IMG/VR virus record: IMGVR_UViG_3300045988_023336
Location: 1-35,619 of that record
DNA: 35,619 nt
Source of the DNA: a virus
Direction: 5' to 3' (one strand)
Part shown: piece by piece, positions 1 through 35,619 of the stretch
Layout: each line of letters begins with the position of its first letter
How positions within the stretch are numbered: position 1 is the stretch's first letter
Position numbers and translations under genes: made by a program
Notes under the pieces: model-generated
What the model was told of the DNA's origin: nothing
What the model saw: the letters and a program-made list of their open reading frames with translations, nothing else
The model's database searches: none

Positions 1-54
1 GCTCTTCTGCTGGTGCAGGCTCTTCTGCTGGTGCAGGCTCTTCTGCTGGTGCAG
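1..54. repeat. Three tandem 18-nt units (gctcttctgctggtgcag) that continue the repeat tract at the window end
   Basis: Direct reading. Bases 1-35 are identical to 35585-35619. The units encode PAPAEE on the minus strand. Confidence 0.9.
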
Positions 55-304
55 GTGCAGGTTTCGCGGCACGCTTAGCACGGGTCTTGGCGCGTTCTGA
101 TTCTACGATCTCGGCCACTGTTTTAGGCTTCTCTTCGTCCTTCACCTTTGTCGCTTCTACAACTGCGTCCGCTAACTTGTCAAGATCGGTTTTACGTTCC
201 GTTACTTCCGGTATGGCTTCGCCGGCCAATTCACGTAAATAGTTAGATGCCGCTAACAATTCCTTCACACTCTCATTTCCGATTAATTCGATTACTACTT
301 TCAT
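1..304 (-). CDS. N-terminal part (101 codons) of a ~209-aa acidic Pro/Ala/Glu-repeat protein; the ORF runs off the window start and resumes at 35259..35619
   Basis: The ATG at 304-302 overlaps the TGA of the upstream HTH gene (ATGA). The minus frame stays open to base 1 (MKVVIELIGNESVKELLAASNYLRELAGEAIPEVTERKTDLDKLADAVVEATKVKDEEKPKTVAEIVESERAKTRAKRAAKPAPAPAEEPAPAEEPAPAEE). Collapsing the 35-nt overlap of the window ends keeps it in frame with 35259..35576. Confidence 0.7.
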   Translation of the reverse strand, partial: MKVVIELIGNESVKELLAASNYLRELAGEAIPEVTERKTDLDKLADAVVEATKVKDEEKPKTVAEIVESERAKTRAKRAAKPAPAPAEEPAPAEEPAPAEE

Positions 305-873: not shown

Positions 874-925
874 CAAAGGTAGGGCTTTATTTTGAACTAC
901 AAAACTATTTCCCAAAAAACTTTAG
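874..925 (-). promoter_or_regulatory. Early promoter P1, Bacteroidota type (-7 TACCTTTG, -33 TTTG, shared upstream element)
   Basis: Plus-strand caaaggta at 874-881 gives TACCTTTG on the minus strand. caaa at 900-903 gives TTTG, with an 18-nt spacer. The upstream caaaaaactttag (913-925) is identical to 28795-28807. The spacer GCTTTATTTTGAACTACAAA closely matches the spacer at 34038-34059. Confidence 0.6.
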
Positions 926-1086
926 TAATTTAACTCTGATTAACGGTTTTGAGGGTTTGGTAACAGTGTCAATGATAAATAGCCCTTTTTAAACGCATCT
1001 TTCATGCCTTAACTGCGTGCGTATCAGTTAGTTAAGTGGCAAAAACAGGTGAAGTGTCTAAGATGAAACATAGTTTCTCTATTAGT

Positions 1087-1269
1087 TTATATTTAAATAT
1101 TTCCATAAATTCATTCACATATTAATTCATATATTTACATATTTTATAGATTATATTACTATTTCATTCTTATCTCTATATATCATCTTTCCATCTTTGA
1201 CAAATACACTATATTACAGTATAAAGTACTATAAATAAGCAAGTTAAGTGTCAAAGATACAAATTTTAA
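1087..1269. repeat. Copy A of a ~185-bp dispersed direct repeat (partner at 21164..21347)
   Basis: 1087-1108 is identical (22/22) to 21164-21185 and contains the palindrome ATATTTAAATAT. 1185-1269 matches 21263-21347 at 80/85 positions. The intervening AT-rich spacer is 76 nt in copy A and 77 nt in copy B. Confidence 0.9.
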
Positions 1270-1284
1270 TCTTTTACAAGCAAA
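1252..1284 (-). promoter_or_regulatory. Promoter-like element P0 inside repeat copy A (-7 TATCTTTG, -33 TTTG, 21-nt spacer)
   Basis: Plus-strand caaagata at 1252-1259 and caaa at 1281-1284. The equivalent position in copy B is degenerate (aaaagata at 21330-21337, giving TATCTTTT). Confidence 0.4.
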
Positions 1285-1313
1285 AACGCCAACTCGTTAA
1301 GAATCAGCGTTTT
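1283..1313 (-). terminator. Weak stem-loop about 50 nt downstream of the last late gene; candidate late-operon terminator
   Basis: aaaacgc (1283-1289) pairs with gcgtttt (1307-1313) around a 17-nt loop. On the minus-sense RNA the stem runs into UUUUUG. Confidence 0.3.
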
Positions 1314-1325
1314 AAATTTTCAAGC

Positions 1326-1360
1326 GTCAAAGATGGAAAGGCATTTGTGAAAGATGGAAG
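1326..1360. promoter_or_regulatory. Two direct operator-like boxes, GTCAAAGATGGAAAG and GTGAAAGATGGAAG, spaced 21 bp start to start
   Basis: Boxes at 1326-1340 and 1347-1360. The first is the exact reverse complement of 1187-1201 and of 21265-21279. Confidence 0.55.
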
Positions 1361-21087: not shown

Positions 21088-21122
21088 TCCGAAACCCTGA
21101 TGAACAGGGCGTTTCAGCTCAA

Positions 21123-21147
21123 GTGTCATAGATGGAAAGATGGAAAC
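21123..21147. promoter_or_regulatory. Operator-like boxes GTGTCATAGATGGAAAG plus an overlapping GATGGAAAC
   Basis: 14/15 match to the reverse complement of 21265-21279 and to 1326-1340. Confidence 0.5.
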
Positions 21148-21163
21148 GGGTTTTCCCTATAGA

Positions 21164-21347
21164 TTATATTTAAATATTTCCATAATTTCAATAACATTCA
21201 ATAACAATAGTATAATATAGTTAACTATATTATTACTTATTAATAGTTACTAACTAGTATATATCTTTCCATCTTTGACAAATACACTATATTATATGAT
21301 AAAGTACTATAAATAAGCAAGTTAGGTGTAAAAGATACAAATTTTAA
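21164..21347. repeat. Copy B of the ~185-bp dispersed direct repeat (partner at 1087..1269)
   Basis: See copy A: a 22/22 box, a 77-nt AT-rich spacer and an 80/85 block. Confidence 0.9.
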
Positions 21348-21547
21348 CCTATGACATCAATAATTTGAAAAGTGCGTTCTGCGTCCTGTGGGGCTGGTCA
21401 GGTGTCAAACATGAAATGGCAGTGTCAAAGACATTTTTCACTACTTTTTTGTCAAAAACAGGCTTTTTAGTTAAAATACCGTTAAAATCAAGCTTTCTCT
21501 CTAAAAAGTTTTCTCTCACAAAGTTTTTTGAGAAGTGCGTTAAATTT

Positions 21548-25878: not shown

Positions 25879-26310
25879 TTATTTATTATTGGTTATTGCT
25901 TCCGCCATCTTCTTAAGCTCGTTGCGTGAGATGTTAACGGTGAACTGGTTGCCCGGGCTGAATATCTGCCATACGCCTGCCATCTTCGGGAAACGCGCAG
26001 TGTGATCCCCTGGGTTGTTTAGGTGCACTATCTCGTTGCTACTTGACGGTTTGTACTCTGCAAGACTTAAGAGCGTCTTAACCGCTGCGTCCGCGTCGCC
26101 TAGATCGATGTCCATCTCTAGGGAACTTGTCCCAGCTAGCTGCCCGGTGATCTGATAGGTTACCGCGTCGCCCTTCGTGACTTCCACGATCTTACATGTT
26201 CCCAGGCGGAAAGACTTAAGCGTTTTTAAACTGCCTGATGCGGTTGATACTTGCGCCATTGCGCTAACTGATAACAAAACTACTGCTAAAATACTGATTA
26301 ACTTTTTCAT
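25879..26310 (-). CDS. Secreted 143-aa protein with a cleavable signal peptide
   Basis: MKKLISILAVVLLSVSAMA-QVST is a classical n-h-c signal peptide with an AxA site and no lipobox Cys. The gene is preceded by the conserved hairpin element. Confidence 0.65.
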   Translation of the reverse strand: MKKLISILAVVLLSVSAMAQVSTASGSLKTLKSFRLGTCKIVEVTKGDAVTYQITGQLAGTSSLEMDIDLGDADAAVKTLLSLAEYKPSSSNEIVHLNNPGDHTARFPKMAGVWQIFSPGNQFTVNISRNELKKMAEAITNNK

Positions 26311-26353
26311 ATCTTTTGGGTGTTGTGGGCGGTGTTACCCGCCCGGGTTAATT
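26311..26353 (-). promoter_or_regulatory. Conserved intergenic element 1: 6-bp GC hairpin (26327-26344) plus a conserved 16-nt pre-ATG tract
   Basis: Plus-strand GGGCGG tgttac CCGCCC. 35/40 positions match 28453-28492. Four of the five differences are two compensatory base-pair flips in the stem. Confidence 0.7.
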
Positions 26354-26770
26354 TTATAATGTTATGTCTATTCTGCAATTATTGCCAGATTTGGTGCTAG
26401 TCACATGCCCAGATAATTCGGGGAATCTGGATACTATATCCTCGGCAGTGGAGAGTATAATCACATTGTCGGTAGTTCCCGCCGTTCTTTTCAGCCAATC
26501 GTATTGCGCGCTGGTTTGTGGAAACAATGTGCGGGTATCGTGTGAGTGGCTTCTAGGCTCGTAACGTACTACTAAACCTTGTTGCGCTAACTTATTGCCT
26601 AATTCAATTACTTCTGATTTGCTAAACTTTTTCACAGCCTTTGTCATAGCCTTTGTTATAGATACCTCTAGGATCGCGCTTTGAAACTCTTTGCGCTCTT
26701 CGCTATTCATTAGGTTCTTATACTTTTTGAAATAGTCTCTCATTCCGTTTTTAAGTTCTTCCAGTGTCAT
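26354..26770 (-). CDS. Hypothetical 138-aa protein, first gene of cassette 1
   Basis: Track ORF. It is preceded by a leader about 90% identical to the one upstream of 28493..28717. Confidence 0.6.
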   Translation of the reverse strand: MTLEELKNGMRDYFKKYKNLMNSEERKEFQSAILEVSITKAMTKAVKKFSKSEVIELGNKLAQQGLVVRYEPRSHSHDTRTLFPQTSAQYDWLKRTAGTTDNVIILSTAEDIVSRFPELSGHVTSTKSGNNCRIDITL

Positions 26771-26810
26771 ACTCTTTAATTTTTAATTGGTTTATTTCCT
26801 TTTGACATTT

Positions 26811-26841
26811 CAAAGATACGGGTTCTTTTCATACTACCAAA
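26811..26841 (-). promoter_or_regulatory. Early promoter P2 (-7 TATCTTTG, -33 TTTG, 19-nt spacer)
   Basis: Plus-strand caaagata at 26811-26818 and caaa at 26838-26841. The -7 box and the ~40-nt leader are nearly identical to P3. Confidence 0.6.
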
Positions 26842-26886
26842 ATATAGGGTAAACTCTTAACTTTGATTTGCATTAAACGCTCTTAG

Positions 26887-27447: not shown

Positions 27448-27888
27448 TTATATGTTTTTTAATTCTTCCGAAATTATCCAGGCCTCCATCACCGAGCACC
27501 TACGGTCCAAAAAATCCGGCGTTCTGTGATCCCCAAACATTTGGCGCATCACGTATTTATAATCCTCTAAGCTGTTCCAGCAGTCAGGCCTGAAGGGACT
27601 CTCCTTAAACATTACAATAAAACATCTATCAGATGTTACTCTCCACGCGTCGGAATGATTCAGCATCCATTCGAAAATAACGTCTAATTGATTCCGCGTG
27701 AGACGCAAACCACCATCTCCCAACACCAACAAAATAAGGTTACGGGAAACTTTTCCCTCTCTTAAGTCCTGTGTAATTTTGGCCTTTAAGCCTTGTTCTG
27801 TACTTTCCATACTGTAAAATTTTATAAGTTTAATTGGATAATACACGGCGATCGCGATAAGCGCCACCGCTAATATAATATACATCAT
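27448..27888 (-). CDS. Membrane-anchored 146-aa protein
   Basis: N-terminal TM segment MMYIILAVALIAIAVYYPI. ATGA overlap with the upstream gene. Confidence 0.55.
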   Translation of the reverse strand: MMYIILAVALIAIAVYYPIKLIKFYSMESTEQGLKAKITQDLREGKVSRNLILLVLGDGGLRLTRNQLDVIFEWMLNHSDAWRVTSDRCFIVMFKESPFRPDCWNSLEDYKYVMRQMFGDHRTPDFLDRRCSVMEAWIISEELKNI

Positions 27889-28079
27889 TCCTCTGTTACA
27901 TAAGTTAGATTAACCCGCTTAACCGTAAATCCCGCTAGGGTCTGACACTCGGCGATATACCGCCGTTCCGCCTCTATGTCCGTTACGACATACGCACCTA
28001 AACTATCCTGGACTTCTGCATAGTCCTGTACTATAACGCCGCCCGTCGTTATAATCACCGCTCTCAATATCTGTATCAT
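27885..28079 (-). CDS. Hypothetical 64-aa protein
   Basis: Track ORF. Its ATG overlaps the stop of the 28-aa micro-ORF. Confidence 0.5.
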   Translation of the reverse strand: MIQILRAVIITTGGVIVQDYAEVQDSLGAYVVTDIEAERRYIAECQTLAGFTVKRVNLTYVTEE

Positions 28080-28162
28080 ACGCTAGTTGTTGGCTCGCAG
28101 CACAATAAGATGAATAATACAAATAGGATCGCCCAAAACGTGTAAACTACAAATTGTTTCAT
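28076..28162 (-). CDS. Unannotated 28-aa hydrophobic micro-ORF
   Basis: MKQFVVYTFWAILFVLFILLCCEPTTSV. The ATG lies 2 nt after the upstream stop, and its TGA overlaps the next ATG (GTATGA). Confidence 0.45.
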   Translation of the reverse strand: MKQFVVYTFWAILFVLFILLCCEPTTSV

Positions 28163-28164
28163 AA

Positions 28165-28452
28165 CTAAAATATTTTAAAGGTTGATATTGCGTGATTAAA
28201 ATCTGATTCGCTAGCGCGCCACACTGTGTACATAGCGTACGTGAAGCGTTCACCCGACCCTAGTTTAGCGCGAATTTCCTTAACTTCTTCAAGGGAAGAA
28301 AAGGTTTTCAGTGCCTTAACTAGTTTCTGCATTTTCAGAGACCGGCTTTCGATCTGTTTCCTTGTGGGTTCTCCGAAGAACCCTTTCTTGTTCCAAAAGC
28401 GGCGGCGGGCTTTTAAATCCGCCTCGCTTAGTTCTCCTGTATTCTGTTTCAT
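28165..28452 (-). CDS. Hypothetical basic 95-aa protein, second gene of cassette 2
   Basis: Track ORF. It is preceded by conserved hairpin element 2. Confidence 0.55.
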   Translation of the reverse strand: MKQNTGELSEADLKARRRFWNKKGFFGEPTRKQIESRSLKMQKLVKALKTFSSLEEVKEIRAKLGSGERFTYAMYTVWRASESDFNHAISTFKIF

Positions 28453-28492
28453 ATCTTTTGAGTGTTGTGGCGGGTGTTACCCCGCCGGGTTA
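28453..28492 (-). promoter_or_regulatory. Conserved intergenic element 2: 6-bp GC hairpin (28469-28486) plus a conserved pre-ATG tract
   Basis: Plus-strand GGCGGG tgttac CCCGCC. This is the covarying partner of 26327-26344. Confidence 0.7.
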
Positions 28493-28717
28493 TTAATTTT
28501 TTAATGATTTGATTTGTCTTTCCAATAAACGCGCCCTACTAGCTTCATTATCTGCAAACTCATTTTGCCCTACGGACCTGTAATACTCGGCATTTTCTTT
28601 AGCGTTTTCAAGTGCTCTTTGTTTTTCCTGGATCATCTGTGATTTTTCGGAATTGTCATTTCTGATTATTACATCTTCTAGAGCGGTTCTTTTTGTTAAT
28701 TCGATAGTTGCTTTCAT
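28493..28717 (-). CDS. 74-aa coiled-coil protein, first gene of cassette 2 (start moved to the ATG at 28717)
   Basis: The track ORF starts at 28753, but its first 12 codons lie in the leader that is non-coding in cassette 1. The ATG at 28717 (MKATIELTK...) is collinear with the ATG at 26770. Confidence 0.55.
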   Translation of the reverse strand: MKATIELTKRTALEDVIIRNDNSEKSQMIQEKQRALENAKENAEYYRSVGQNEFADNEASRARLLERQIKSLKN

Positions 28718-28756
28718 GACTTTAATTTTTAAGTGGTTATTTCCTTTTGACATTTC

Positions 28757-28807
28757 AAAGATACGACTTAATTACGAACTACCAAAACTTTTCTCAAAAA
28801 ACTTTAG
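28757..28807 (-). promoter_or_regulatory. Early promoter P3 (-7 TATCTTTG, -33 TTTG, 18-nt spacer, shared upstream element)
   Basis: Plus-strand caaagata at 28757-28764 and caaa at 28783-28786. caaaaaactttag at 28795-28807 is identical to 913-925. Confidence 0.6.
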
Positions 28808-33433: not shown

Positions 33434-34000
33434 TTAGTTGAAATCTGCCAGACTGTCGTTTTCATCGCTTAAATCTTCGAAGTCGTTAACGCTTGATCCG
33501 CCGTCCAGTCTATCATCATCGGTTACTTTCTGTATCCCGTTCAATCCGGCTGTTATACCGCGGTTGTCGGCGCTCATATTGTAACCATAGATTGAGATGG
33601 AAGCTACTCCCCAAGAGCCGGAATACATATCCTCCTTCACTGTAATCGGGCGTTTACTCTTGTCGATTATGATCGGTTGCCCGTGTTCCTCCTTGCGCTT
33701 CGCTGTGATGTAATAACATCCTTCATACCCGGCTTGTCCTTCTTTCTCCGGCGCGTCGCCATCCCGTAACGGGCTTTTGTAATTTTCCGGTACGCGTCCT
33801 TTGAATTTTGGGTCTCTTGAAAAATAATCCTGCGCTTCTGCCTTAACCGCGTCATTGATTTGCTTAATCAAAGCTGTATCTGTTTTAGGGATCAACAATG
33901 TTACACTGTAATGATATTCACCTACGCCTTGATACTGTTCTGCCTCGAAAACTCTTACATAAGAGAAACGTACGTTTTTTAAGATCAATTTTCTACTCAT
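33434..34000 (-). CDS. DUF2815-type phage ssDNA-binding protein (188 aa)
   Basis: VRFSYVRVFEAE...YSVTLLIPKTDTALIKQINDAVKA matches the characteristic N-terminus of DUF2815 proteins. The C-terminal tail is acidic (DFEDLSDENDSLADFN). The gene sits between a DUF2800-like gene and PolA, as in the known module. Confidence 0.8.
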   Translation of the reverse strand: MSRKLILKNVRFSYVRVFEAEQYQGVGEYHYSVTLLIPKTDTALIKQINDAVKAEAQDYFSRDPKFKGRVPENYKSPLRDGDAPEKEGQAGYEGCYYITAKRKEEHGQPIIIDKSKRPITVKEDMYSGSWGVASISIYGYNMSADNRGITAGLNGIQKVTDDDRLDGGSSVNDFEDLSDENDSLADFN

Positions 34001-34029
34001 AATTTTTAAGTTTAATTTGTTTCACGGTT

Positions 34030-34059
34030 CAAAGATATTGCTTTATTTTAAACTTCAAA
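34030..34059 (-). promoter_or_regulatory. Early promoter P4 (-7 TATCTTTG, -33 TTTG, 18-nt spacer)
   Basis: Plus-strand caaagata at 34030-34037 and caaa at 34056-34059. The spacer GCTTTATTTTAAACTTCAAA is nearly identical to the P1 spacer. Confidence 0.6.
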
Positions 34060-34095
34060 CCTTTTATACATTCTTTAATTGTTTTTTAACTTCTG

Positions 34096-35259
34096 TTAGC
34101 CTTCGATGTCGAAGTCGCAAAGCGGGTTATATTCCACACCCTTAGCGCTTTCCGGTACTAGTTTCGGTGCTCCGGGTCGCGATTCGATCGCGTCTCCAAA
34201 CCTCGCGCTAAATACCTTTTTACCCAACAGTTTTTCGAGATCTCCGATACCCTTTAGCTTGATGTTTAAAACCTCGTCCTCCAGGAACTCGTTTAATAAC
34301 TCCTGCCGTACCTTTGCTTCGTCCGTGATAACTCGGCTTGACCGTCCGGCTACTAGCTTGTAACCGTTCCATTTATGCCCCTGTATCGCTCTATCGTAGA
34401 CGTACTTATTAACTGATTCGATCCAGCTCTTATACGTGTCGATCTTACCAATAAGGTCGGTTACTTCTTCGTCAGACAATAACAGCGGTTCGGGCTTTTC
34501 GTCGAAGTCTGCAAGTATTGCGTCACGTTGCGCCCTGCATTGGGCTTTAACCGGACAAAATCCGCACCAACTCCCGATAACCTGTTTTCCTTTGCCCTGT
34601 ATTGCCGCTTTTGCGGCGGGTTTCAGGACTTTCTCCGCCCAGTCAAGTAATTCACCCTTCGACATCTCAAACGTGTCGTAGTGGTCTAATCTGACTTGTG
34701 CTATCGTCATTCGAATATTGGTTATGTTCGGCGACATTGCTGCCTTCAAAGTTCCCAAGGCATACAGCATCATTTGTTCGTTGTGATCGGCTGTTACCTT
34801 AACACCCGCGCCGTACTTCAGATCTATAATGTGTATCGTCTTGTCAGATACTAGTGTTACGTCTACCGATCCGAACGAATCCGGTGCGTAATCGGTAATG
34901 TCTACTTTACGCTCTAGGAACATTTCGCTTAAACCGTCCGCCTTCTGCATTTCGTAAATTTCACCGATAACATAATTGCAATAGTCGCGAATGTAATTTG
35001 CCATGTCAATACTAAACAGCGGGTTTTTGAGGTGTTCATAGTTGACGGGTAACTCTTCGTCGACGATCGGATCATATAAGCCGTTCATATACTGTGTCAA
35101 CGCGTATTCGGCTATTTCGTGGGCTAGAGTTCCCTCTTCCGCGTAAACGCTTGTCTTACTGCCTGCGGCTTCTGCTAGTAGCGCCGATGGAGTGCAATTT
35201 ATCCATCGTTTCGCGCTACTCGGCGATAAAATCGCGTGGTCTCTATCTGCGTGTCCCAT
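34096..35259 (-). CDS. DUF2800-like PD-(D/E)XK (Cas4/RecB-like) exonuclease with a C-terminal Cys cluster
   Basis: The N-terminus HAILSPSSAKRWINCTPS is the hallmark of DUF2800. IIDLKYG is the (D/E)xK core. GSWCGFCPVKAQC is an Fe-S-type cysteine cluster. A TAATG overlap links it to the upstream gene. Confidence 0.8.
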   Translation of the reverse strand: MGHADRDHAILSPSSAKRWINCTPSALLAEAAGSKTSVYAEEGTLAHEIAEYALTQYMNGLYDPIVDEELPVNYEHLKNPLFSIDMANYIRDYCNYVIGEIYEMQKADGLSEMFLERKVDITDYAPDSFGSVDVTLVSDKTIHIIDLKYGAGVKVTADHNEQMMLYALGTLKAAMSPNITNIRMTIAQVRLDHYDTFEMSKGELLDWAEKVLKPAAKAAIQGKGKQVIGSWCGFCPVKAQCRAQRDAILADFDEKPEPLLLSDEEVTDLIGKIDTYKSWIESVNKYVYDRAIQGHKWNGYKLVAGRSSRVITDEAKVRQELLNEFLEDEVLNIKLKGIGDLEKLLGKKVFSARFGDAIESRPGAPKLVPESAKGVEYNPLCDFDIEG

Positions 35260-35619
35260 TATAGGCGGCTCGAAATGTATGCAACAAAATCGTTAAACAT
35301 CTCTTCCTTCAACGTCGGGAAACTGGAAGCGCCTACGCTTTCAAAAGCTTCCTGTACAATCGGGCGTTTCTTCGCGTTTAGAGCCTTCATAGCCCATGAT
35401 TTACAATCGTCGATAGTGTGCTCCGTTTCTGTCTTAGCGGGCTTCTCTGATGGTGCCGGAGCAGGTTCTTCCACTGGTGCCGGAGCAGGTTCTTCCACTG
35501 GTGCCGGAGCAGGTTCTTCCACTGGTGCGGGTTCTTCTGCCTTTGCAGGTTCTTCCACTGGTGTAGGCTCTTCCACTGGTGCAGGCTCTTCTGCTGGTGC
35601 AGGCTCTTCTGCTGGTGCA
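35259..35619 (-). CDS. C-terminal part of the wrap-around acidic PAPxEE-repeat protein (continuation of 1..304)
   Basis: The frame of track ORF 35259..35576 remains open to the window end. The repeat EEPAPAPV occurs three times, followed by a globular C-terminus (TEHTIDDCKSWAMKALNAKKRPIVQEAFESVGASSFPTLKEEMFNDFVAYISSRL). Confidence 0.7.
   Translation of the reverse strand, partial: APAEEPAPAEEPAPVEEPTPVEEPAKAEEPAPVEEPAPAPVEEPAPAPVEEPAPAPSEKPAKTETEHTIDDCKSWAMKALNAKKRPIVQEAFESVGASSFPTLKEEMFNDFVAYISSRL
35451..35619. repeat. In-frame tandem repeats: 3 perfect 24-nt units (35451-35522), then degenerate 18-nt units running to the window end
   Basis: tggtgccggagcaggttcttccac occurs three times. Then ggctcttc(c/t)(a/g)ctggtgca units follow. 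The last 35 nt equal the first 35 nt of the window. Confidence 0.9.

What the first reader, a model, noticed from the sequence alone, without database searches (positions are those of the whole stretch)
25879..26841. Two moron-like cassettes share promoter, leader and intergenic hairpin but carry unrelated genes
Cassette 1 (26841->25879) and cassette 2 (28807->28165) have the same skeleton. It runs TTTG-N18/19-TATCTTTG promoter, then a ~40-nt leader about 90% identical (GAAATGTCAAAAGGAAATAA(A)CCA(A/C)TTAAAAATTAAAG..ATG), then gene X, then the covarying hairpin, then gene Y. The coding payloads show no detectable similarity. X is 138 aa in cassette 1 and a 74-aa coiled coil in cassette 2. Y is a signal-peptide protein of 143 aa in cassette 1 and a basic 95-aa protein in cassette 2. 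Conserved regulatory scaffolds with swapped cargo suggest a modular exchange mechanism for accessory genes, with recombination at the conserved flanks. They also mark the four cargo genes as candidates for host-takeover, superinfection-exclusion or anti-defence functions.
Basis: partly seen in the sequence, partly recalled or inferred. Interest (0 to 1): 0.65.

Follow-up and report, generated by a model that had tools for sequence, protein, structure and literature searches.

The report
Two accessory-gene slots with reusable linkers
This Bacteroides phage and its relatives keep two fixed slots, each behind a copy of one promoter, where small genes of unknown function are swapped using short conserved linker sequences; it resembles a system known in T4-type phages.

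Summary
The promoter-leader (PL) and the intergenic hairpin (HP) each occur twice in the window, where chance predicts none. The payload proteins show no similarity by BLASTP or profile comparison.

The window is a roughly 36-kb Bacteroides phage genome. I compared it with 6 isolate genomes and 49 IMG/VR loci. Every relative has a PL after the primase gene (slot A) and another after the VRR-NUC gene (slot B). Slot contents are hypervariable: 28 layouts in 35 loci for slot A and 37 in 54 for slot B. Nine cargo families, including X2, Y2 and the C-terminal module of X1, occur in slot A in some phages and slot B in others.

Homology between different contexts ends at the edges of PL or HP. One pair of relatives differs by a clean 221-nt insertion or deletion of one hairpin-plus-gene unit.

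Three points need correcting:
- Y1 is a core gene (55 of 55 relatives), not cargo.
- PL belongs to the phage backbone and is present even when a slot is empty.
- HP has no U-tract on the coding strand.

So these are not classical morons. The closest known analogue is the PeSL-mediated shuffling of T4-type phages. Cargo functions remain unknown.

The parts
26771..26846 (-). PL_B: slot-B promoter and leader. It has -33 TTTG at 26838-26841, -7 TATCTTTG at 26811-26818 and a roughly 40-nt A-rich leader at 26771-26810.
   Evidence: The element is conserved at this position in every relative that covers it. The leader is 83% identical to the distant clade, against 62-74% for core genes.
26354..26770 (-). 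X1, 138 aa: slot-B cargo, a fusion of a 43-aa helical N-module and the 93-aa f31 module.
   Evidence: The full-length form was found only in BO668P2 among the 55 loci. The C-module is a stand-alone ORF in slot A of L003 and L033 and in slot B of L027. The N-module is shared with 99-aa proteins. GC is 40.8% against 46.7% for the genome. No Pfam, PHROG, PDB or fold match was found.
26306..26352 (-). HP_B: linker with a 6-bp GC stem (26327-26344, allele T1 GGGCGG/CCGCCC), a GTAACA loop and the tail ACAACACCCAAAAGAT. It ends in the ATG of Y1.
25879..26310 (-). Y1, 143 aa: a core gene with a signal-peptide-like N-terminus. It marks the fixed downstream border of slot B and is not cargo.
   Evidence: Present in 55 of 55 relatives. 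It has 252 protein clusters, all on contigs of about 37 kb or less. The AlphaFold2 model has pLDDT 74 and gives weak PUR-alpha-like hits.
28718..28791 (-). PL_A: slot-A promoter and leader, with -33 TTTG at 28783-28786 and -7 TATCTTTG at 28756-28763.
28493..28717 (-). X2, 74 aa: helical cargo.
   Evidence: It lies in slot A in the window, L009, L013, L028, L029 and L037. It lies in slot B in L012 and L032, and in L050 as part of a fused ORF. GC is 34.7%.
28448..28495 (-). HP_A: linker with stem 28469-28486 (allele T2 GGCGGG/CCCGCC). It ends in the ATG of Y2.
28165..28452 (-). Y2, 95 aa: basic cargo and the commonest cargo family.
   Evidence: Found in slot A in 18 loci and slot B in 9, and absent from many others. 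It has 737 protein clusters, all on phage-sized contigs.
28076..28162 (-). 28-aa hydrophobic mini-ORF that forms the fixed downstream border of slot A. Its stop codon overlaps the ATG of the conserved 64-aa gene.
   Evidence: Read. In relatives an HP sits directly before its ATGAAACAATTTGTAGT start.
874..903 (-). Third, more diverged copy of the promoter (72% identity over 88 nt to PL_A), at the head of the operon that begins with ORF 468-797.
   Evidence: families D4 and D7; three PL hits in every whole genome.
33434..35259 (-). Phage recombination and replication genes that could carry out exchange at short homologies: a DUF2800 PD-(D/E)XK nuclease (34096-35259) and an Enc34-type ssDNA-binding protein (33434-34000).
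   Evidence: Pfam E 7e-113 and 6e-48. Their role in the shuffling is inferred, not shown.

Best explanation
The two 'cassettes' are the two accessory-gene slots of a family of roughly 36-kb Bacteroides siphophages.

Layout. Each slot lies just downstream of a copy of one backbone promoter. The promoter is of the Bacteroides sigma-ABfr type (-33 TTTG, 19 nt, -7 TAnnTTTG) and carries a strongly conserved A-rich leader of about 40 nt. Slot A lies between the primase gene and a 28-aa mini-ORF followed by a 64-aa gene. Slot B lies between the VRR-NUC gene and the core gene Y1.

Cargo. Each slot holds zero to four small ORFs drawn from a shared pool of about 25 or more orphan families.

Linkers. The ORFs are joined by standard linkers that share one frame: stop codon, AATAACC, a middle part, AAAGATATG-AAA. 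The middle part is either a GC-rich hairpin (HP) or the 3' half of the leader.

Mechanism. Because the same 45-80-nt sequences recur at every junction and in both slots, homologous recombination between co-infecting relatives can add, delete, replace or move ORFs. Gene conversion could do the same. Every recombinant keeps a promoter, an initiation region and an intact reading frame.

What is shown and what is inferred. The architecture, the cargo turnover, the movement between slots and the breakpoints at linker edges are shown. Inferred are the recombination mechanism, a possible role for the phage's own PD-(D/E)XK nuclease and ssDNA-binding protein, and the activity of PL as a promoter. I also infer that HP works in the mRNA as a read-through stem-loop that stabilises or insulates cistrons, rather than as a terminator.
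For: 1. PL and HP are real repeats. HP pairing holds in 99.1% of cells across 57 distinct copies. Two of its six pairs show compensatory swaps, and 0 of 500 shuffles reach the observed score.
2. The distant clade keeps the stem but has GCGA, GAAA or GGAA loops, all GNRA tetraloops. There are 9 G.U cells against 1 A.C cell, which points to the coding-strand RNA.
3. Every relative has a PL at both positions.
4. Slot contents vary widely: 28 layouts in 35 loci for slot A and 37 in 54 for slot B. Nine families occur in both slots.
5. The window's PL-X2-HP segment in slot A matches slot B of L012 at 92.8% over 345 nt. The match starts at the -33 box and ends just after the HP.
6. Across 580 pairs of the same cargo in different contexts, homology runs a median 50 nt past the stop codon (IQR 46-55) when an HP follows. 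It runs 46 nt before the ATG (IQR 44-52) when an HP precedes, and about 70 nt when a PL precedes.
7. L007 and L008 differ by one clean 221-nt HP-plus-ORF unit, flanked by DNA that is 99.6% and 96.6% identical.
8. Stem alleles T1 and T2 both occur in the same gene contexts: f16-Y1, f33-Y1, f6-Y1 and X2-Y1.
9. Junctions without an HP reuse the 3' part of the leader.
10. Cultured isolates show moves between slots too. Family f14 is in slot A of BK687P4 and slot B of BK735P3. Module f31 is in slot A of BK735P3 and fused in slot B of BO668P2 and the window.
11. HP is absent from 185,579 bacterial and archaeal genomes. In IMG/VR it occurs only on contigs of about 37 kb or less; 18 of the 20 are contigs already retrieved through Y1.
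12. All five Bacteroides-type promoter matches lie on the gene strand, against 0.76 expected. The consensus is from PMC7366714.
Against: - No transcript, transcription start or recombination data exist, so promoter activity, read-through at HP and the recombination route are all inferred.
- Exchange at exact gene boundaries also occurs where there is no HP (median 0-11 nt). Slot B of the distant clade is equally variable without any HP. HP is therefore not required for shuffling.
- 45 of the 49 IMG/VR loci come from one metagenome (3300045988). Assemblers can create chimeras at repeats, which would inflate the apparent shuffling.
- The T1/T2 stem difference is in effect one two-state character, so the independent covariation events are few.
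- Recombination also occurs inside cargo genes, as the X1 fusion shows. Breakpoints are therefore not confined to linkers.
Confidence: 0.75

Rival explanations
1. The linkers are passengers, not drivers. PL and HP are conserved only for their role in expression (promoter, initiation region, RNA stem-loop). Cargo turnover comes from illegitimate recombination followed by selection for intact genes. Breakpoints look linker-bound only because linkers are the sole shared sequence.
For: Gene-precise breakpoints also occur at junctions without an HP. Slot B of the distant clade is variable without HP. The leader is more conserved than coding DNA between clades, which fits functional constraint.
Against: The L007/L008 indel is exactly one unit bounded by direct HP repeats. 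Stem alleles and promoter-spacer alleles reassort between slots and contexts. Junctions without an HP still carry a shared leader-derived sequence. Tandem leader fragments look like recombination scars (L038, L040, L055).
Confidence: 0.15
2. These are classical morons: two independently acquired transcription units, each bringing its own promoter and terminator, as in HK97.
For: A promoter-like element precedes each unit, a GC hairpin lies within it, and X1 and X2 have low GC (40.8% and 34.7% against 46.7%). The cargo is absent from many relatives.
Against: PL is present in all relatives, including four with an empty slot B where it directly precedes core gene Y1. HP has no U-tract on the coding strand. 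Up to three HPs lie upstream of core genes, and nhmmer found no further PL match after them. Y1 is a core gene. The definition of a moron is from PMC3594210.
Confidence: 0.05
3. A plain tandem duplication of one two-gene unit, whose coding parts have since diverged beyond recognition.
For: The two units share the same order of promoter-leader, gene, hairpin and gene.
Against: BLASTP and hhalign find no relationship between the payloads. X1 and X2 homologues at 88-96% identity sit in the other slot in relatives, so the payloads are distinct mobile families. Y1 is core, while Y2 is variable.
Confidence: 0.02
4. A dedicated cassette-capture system resembling an integron: HP folds in single-stranded DNA and is cut and rejoined by a phage enzyme, for example the adjacent VRR-NUC nuclease.
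For: The layout is a promoter at the head followed by promoterless ORFs, each with a structured site. The hairpin structure is conserved through compensatory change. Units of ORF plus HP come and go as wholes.
Against: No integrase is annotated in the relatives. The 6-bp stem is far smaller than an attC site. G.U wobbles and GNRA loops point to RNA rather than DNA. Shuffling also occurs without HP.
Confidence: 0.03

Closest known systems
PeSLs (promoter-early stem-loops) in the hyperplastic regions of T4-type phages (Arbiol et al. 2010, PMC2839356; Comeau et al. 2014, PMC4122927)
   Same: In both cases short conserved regulatory motifs made of stop codon, AT-rich stretch, GC stem-loop, initiation region and start codon flank small orphan genes in variable regions. 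Insertions, deletions and replacements between relatives are bounded by the motifs. Recombination between motifs is the proposed cause, and it keeps each moved gene expressible.
   Different: Here the promoter and the stem-loop are separate elements: two PL copies at the slot heads and HPs between genes. The promoter is the Bacteroides sigma-ABfr type, not sigma-70. There is no Shine-Dalgarno sequence. The stem-loop lacks a U-tract and probably allows read-through, whereas a PeSL stem-loop was shown to terminate transcription. The host phage is a 36-kb siphophage with only two slots, against about 50 PeSLs per T4-type genome. Minicircles have not been tested.
Morons of lambdoid phages such as HK97 (Cumby et al. 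2012, PMC3594210)
   Same: Both are extra genes present in some relatives and absent in others, often with deviating GC content and of unknown accessory function.
   Different: A moron carries its own promoter and terminator. Here the promoter belongs to the backbone operon and no terminator is evident. These phages are not seen as prophages: HP is absent from 185,579 genomes.
Integron gene-cassette arrays
   Same: Both have one promoter at the head followed by an array of promoterless ORFs, each accompanied by a structured boundary element. Cassettes are drawn from a shared pool.
   Different: There is no integrase and no attI or attC architecture. The stem is 6 bp, against 57-141-bp attC sites. 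Exchange is most simply explained by ordinary homologous recombination.
Intercistronic stabilising stem-loops in bacterial operons (from my own knowledge, for example REP sequences in malEFG and the puf operon hairpins)
   Same: Both are stable GC hairpins between cistrons without a U-tract, compatible with read-through and with protection of the upstream mRNA segment.
   Different: No processing or stability data exist here. The HP sequence itself is conserved along with the structure, and it coincides with recombination boundaries.

Membership tests
Moron | The inserted unit brings its own promoter. | tested here: not met
   PL is present in every relative at both positions, including four loci with an empty slot B where PL directly precedes core gene Y1.
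Moron | The unit has its own terminator downstream of the gene. | tested here: not met
   On the coding strand HP is followed by ACAACAC, with no T run. The scan finds a terminator-like match only on the antisense strand and without enrichment, 4 found against 4.2 expected.
Moron | The unit is present in one phage and absent at the same place in close relatives, with deviating GC content. | tested here: met
   X1, X2 and Y2 are variably present. GC is 40.8%, 34.7% and 44.1% against 46.7% for the genome. Y1 fails this test because it is a core gene.
PeSL (T4-type phages) | A composite motif of about 100 bp that combines a sigma-70-like early promoter with a stem-loop. | tested here: not met
   HP copies contain no promoter match. 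PL copies contain no GC stem-loop. The promoter is of the TTTG / TAnnTTTG type.
PeSL (T4-type phages) | The motifs are concentrated in variable regions next to orphan genes, and indels between relatives are bounded by them. | tested here: met
   All HP copies lie in the two slots. Homology ends at the motif edges. A clean one-unit indel is seen.
PeSL (T4-type phages) | The stem-loop acts as a transcription terminator or attenuator, and minicircles are formed. | not testable with these tools
   This needs reporter assays and PCR on infected cells.
Bacteroides sigma-ABfr promoter | A -7 TAnnTTTG box and a -33 TTTG box (consensus from PMC7366714). | tested here: met
   There are five matches, all on the gene strand, against 0.76 expected. 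Both boxes are conserved across 55 relatives, except for a CA variant of the -7 box in L036 and L048. Promoter activity was not tested.
Intrinsic (Rho-independent) terminator | A GC-rich hairpin followed by a U-tract on the transcribed strand. | tested here: not met
   The hairpin criterion is met at -14.3 kcal/mol. The U-tract is absent on the coding strand.
Integron | A tyrosine-recombinase integrase plus attI and attC sites. | tested here: not met
   No integrase is annotated in BO1, BKO1-1 or BKR1. HP is a 6-bp stem, not an attC site. I did not scan every window ORF for recombinase domains.

The most novel reading that the evidence does not exclude
HP is not just shared homology but a purpose-built cassette boundary. 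On this reading it is a structured site that a phage-encoded factor recognises, in RNA or single-stranded DNA, and that promotes capture and excision of units of ORF plus hairpin. This would give these gut phages an integrase-free, integron-like way to sample accessory genes at two expression-ready docks.
Probability: 0.06. Interest if true: 0.85.

Novelty: new variant of a known kind. Interest (0 to 1): 0.5.

Why it matters
The finding gives a well-documented case, outside the T4 group and in a different bacterial phylum, of phages that standardise their gene junctions so accessory genes can be exchanged without losing expression.

For gut-phage biology it does two things. It marks two short regions per genome where fast-evolving orphan genes concentrate, which are likely candidates for host interaction or counter-defence. 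It also explains why otherwise near-identical Bacteroides phages differ there.

In practical terms, PL and HP are natural insertion points and expression parts for engineering Bacteroides phages. The HP stem-loop, with GNRA loops in one clade, is an uncharacterised intercistronic RNA element that can be tested directly.

Tried and rejected
- Rfam at gathering thresholds on the whole window gave no hit.
- PHROGs and Pfam gave nothing significant for X1, X2, Y1 or Y2. Only the neighbouring cargo family f5 shows a P-loop fragment, and it scores below the curated cut-offs.
- PDB sequence searches for the four proteins gave nothing below E 0.03.
- The AlphaFold2 model of X1 (pLDDT 80) has no PDB fold match.
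- The Y1 model (pLDDT 74) gives only weak PUR-alpha/Whirly-like matches: E 0.01 and TM 0.55 in the PDB, and similarly weak hits in BFVD. I treat this as a lead, not an assignment.
- I rejected a short upstream ORF in the leader (ATGTCAAAAGG...). Its start codon varies among ATG, GTG and ACG in relatives, and it lies 3 nt after the -7 box.
- I could not support an antisense-terminator role for HP. The tail is a broken T run and terminator-like matches are not enriched.
- I noted a possible operator (TTTGA-N4-TCAAA overlapping the -7 box) but did not test it.
- Literature searches for the isolate names found no paper describing these slots. One paper identifies the OP172 records as the Gut Phage Isolate Collection.
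- My first single-linkage clustering of slot ORFs wrongly merged X1, X2 and Y2, through fused ORFs and ORFs that begin inside the promoter. I replaced it with clustering at 75% coverage.

Full report
**What the window is.** All long ORFs lie on the - strand. The two ends carry the same 18-nt tandem repeats, so the window is a circularly permuted, complete genome of about 35.6 kb. Megablast finds 34 related phage records, 31 of them Bacteroides phages. The closest is Bacteroides phage BO668P2, at 94% identity over 97% of a 9-kb query. The region studied lies in the replication module. Its gene order is primase/helicase, slot A, a 28-aa mini-ORF, 64-aa, 146-aa and 89-aa genes, VRR-NUC, slot B, Y1, two genes of about 140 aa, and an SNF2 helicase.

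**Checking the observation.** The promoter-leader (PL) copies are at 26771-26846 and 28718-28791 on the - strand. Both read TTTG, 19 nt, TATCTTTG, followed by an A-rich leader of about 40 nt.
- A 27-nt core occurs exactly twice, against none expected.
- The hairpin linker (HP) copies are at 26306-26352 and 28448-28495. They are 88% identical over 49 nt, with two matches against 0.02 expected.
- Both HP copies fold into a 6-bp GC stem with a GTAACA loop at -14.3 kcal/mol.
- The two stems differ by two compensatory pair swaps.
- The payload proteins show no similarity by BLASTP or by profile-profile comparison, where probability is 3.3% or less.

**The promoter.** The pattern TTTG-N17-21-TAnnTTTG is the published consensus for the Bacteroides primary sigma factor (PMC7366714). 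It occurs five times in the window, always on the gene strand, against 0.76 expected. The other three copies precede ORF 468-797, lie in the long intergenic region near 1250, and precede the ssDNA-binding protein gene. PL_A and PL_B are therefore the two most similar members of the phage's own promoter set. Promoter activity is inferred from the consensus and was not tested.

**Comparative genomics.** I fetched six cultured-isolate genomes (L001-L006). I also fetched 49 IMG/VR loci that encode a Y1 homologue at 52-98% identity.
- Y1 is present at the same place in all 55, so it is a core gene rather than cargo.
- nhmmer profiles find a PL after the primase gene and a PL after VRR-NUC in every locus that covers those positions. 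Each whole genome has a third, more diverged copy.
- HP occurs one to four times per locus and only inside the two slots.
- Slot A has 28 different layouts in 35 loci. Slot B has 37 in 54, including four empty slots where PL sits directly before Y1.
- The cargo consists of small ORFs of about 30-140 aa from some 25 or more families.
- Nine families occur in slot A in some phages and slot B in others: Y2, X2, f6, f14, f16, f17, f31, f37 and f42.
- Isolates alone show this too. Family f14 is in slot A of BK687P4 and slot B of BK735P3. Module f31 is a stand-alone gene in slot A of BK735P3 and is fused into X1 in slot B of BO668P2 and the window.

**Breakpoints.**
- The window's slot-A segment PL-X2-HP matches slot B of L012 at 92.8% over 345 nt. 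The match begins at the -33 box and ends a few bases after the ATG that closes the HP.
- In L032, X2 is preceded by an HP instead of a PL. There the homology starts 6 nt before the ATG.
- I compared 580 pairs of the same cargo family with different neighbours. Homology extends a median 50 nt beyond the stop codon when an HP follows (IQR 46-55). It extends 46 nt before the ATG when an HP precedes (IQR 44-52) and about 70 nt when a PL precedes. Where no HP is present it extends only 0-11 nt.
- L007 and L008 are 99.6% and 96.6% identical on either side of a clean 221-nt indel. The indel equals one unit of HP plus ORF f42 and is bounded by direct HP repeats. This is the footprint expected from recombination between two HP copies.

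**The hairpin.**
- Across 57 distinct copies, 99.1% of stem cells pair. Two of the six pairs show changes on both sides. No shuffle of 500 reaches the observed covariation score, and sliding the partner columns destroys pairing.
- There are three allele classes. T1 (GGGCGG/CCGCCC) has 29 copies and T2 (GGCGGG/CCCGCC) has 20. The distant clade has 14 copies of a 7-bp stem with GCGA, GAAA or GGAA loops, all of them GNRA tetraloops.
- Nine G.U cells against one A.C cell favour a structure in the coding-strand RNA.
- T1 and T2 both occur in identical gene contexts, so the stem allele reassorts independently of its flanks.
- On the coding strand the stem is followed by ACAACAC, with no U-tract. Up to three HPs lie upstream of core genes, and nhmmer found no further PL match after them.
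- I therefore infer that HP allows read-through. A stabilising or insulating stem-loop is more likely than a terminator, but this is not shown.
- HP matches no Rfam family and is absent from 185,579 bacterial and archaeal genomes.
- In IMG/VR it occurs on 20 contigs, all of about 37 kb or less. Eighteen of them were already retrieved through Y1.

**A common junction frame.** Junctions without an HP are of two kinds: tight overlaps, or a sequence identical to the 3' part of the leader (...AATAAC-A-TTTAAAAATTAGAATCATGAAA). HP itself begins AATAACC and ends AAAGATATGAAA, as the leader does. AAAGAT|ATGAAA is the commonest start context among slot genes, in 51 of 238. Tandem leader fragments occur in L038, L040 and L055. 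Between the near and distant clades the leader is 83% identical, while core genes are 62-74% identical.

**The cargo.**
- X1 is a fusion. Residues 1-43 are a helical module that is also found joined to a different C-terminal module in 99-aa proteins. Residues 46-138 are the f31 module.
- X1, X2, Y1 and Y2 have no significant Pfam, PHROG or PDB sequence match.
- The X1 model has no fold match in the PDB.
- The Y1 model shows two beta4-alpha repeats with weak PUR-alpha-like matches.
- Homologues of X1, Y1 and Y2 occur only on contigs of about 37 kb or less.
- GC content is low for X1 (40.8%) and X2 (34.7%), and core-like for Y1 (48.1%).

**Interpretation.** These are two expression-ready docks behind backbone promoters, filled from a shared pool of orphan genes through standard linkers.
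- The simplest mechanism is homologous recombination at the 45-80-nt linkers during mixed infection.
- The phage's DUF2800 PD-(D/E)XK nuclease and Enc34-type ssDNA-binding protein may help. This role is inferred.
- The closest known system is the PeSL of T4-type phages. It has the same logic but a different build.
- The units are not classical morons as defined in PMC3594210.

**Caveats.** Most metagenomic loci come from a single sample, where assembly chimeras at repeats are possible. HP is not needed for shuffling. No expression or crossing data exist.

Noticed in passing
window 28076-28162 (-): A 28-aa hydrophobic mini-ORF (MKQFVVYTFWAILFVLFILLCCEPTTSV). Its stop codon overlaps the ATG of the conserved 64-aa gene (ATGA). 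It is conserved in relatives, is not annotated in the isolates, and forms the fixed downstream border of slot A.
   Followed up: partly
window 25879-26310 (-): The core protein Y1 has a signal-peptide-like N-terminus. Its AlphaFold2 model (pLDDT 74) has two beta4-alpha repeats that weakly match PUR-alpha repeat I-II (8cht_C, E 0.01, TM 0.55), a fold that binds single-stranded nucleic acid. That would be an odd combination for a secreted protein.
   Followed up: partly
window 26354-26770 (-): X1 is a domain fusion. Its 43-aa N-module is also joined to an unrelated C-module in 99-aa proteins. Both C-modules also exist as stand-alone ORFs (f31, and f49 in BK687P4). Shuffling therefore reaches below the gene level.
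   Followed up: yes
window 1060-1340 and 21119-21418: Two long AT-rich intergenic regions share repeats of 61-94 nt (77-91% identity) with several CATCTTTGACA-like boxes. They may be further regulatory or packaging/origin regions.
   Followed up: no
window 1-71 and 35445-35619: 18-nt tandem repeats inside a coding region run off both ends of the window. The window is therefore a circular permutation that is cut inside a repeat-rich gene.
   Followed up: no
window 27448-27888 (-): The 146-aa gene between the 64-aa and 89-aa genes is replaced in most relatives by proteins of about 200-330 aa that match it only in part. This is a third variable spot, without PL or HP.
   Followed up: no
window 26805-26821 and 28750-28766 (-): An imperfect inverted repeat, TTTGA-N4-TCAAA, overlaps the -7 box and the likely transcription start in both PL copies. 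The GTCAA part is conserved across clades. It could be an operator for a phage regulator.
   Followed up: no
L038:7269-7370 (+); also L040 and L055 slot B: Tandem copies of leader fragments occur, for example three copies of ATAACCACTTAAA in L038. They look like scars of unequal exchange inside the leader.
   Followed up: partly
slot A of L005, L008, L014, L015, L017, L019, L024, L027 and L030: A second promoter-leader allele (TACCTTTGCTTTCACAATAACCAATTAAAG...) replaces the usual one in slot A. It travels mostly with cargo families f15, f16 and f22.
   Followed up: partly
protein searches: The cargo protein Y2 has 737 clusters at 90% identity, against 252 for the core protein Y1. This suggests much faster diversification of the cargo.
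   Followed up: no
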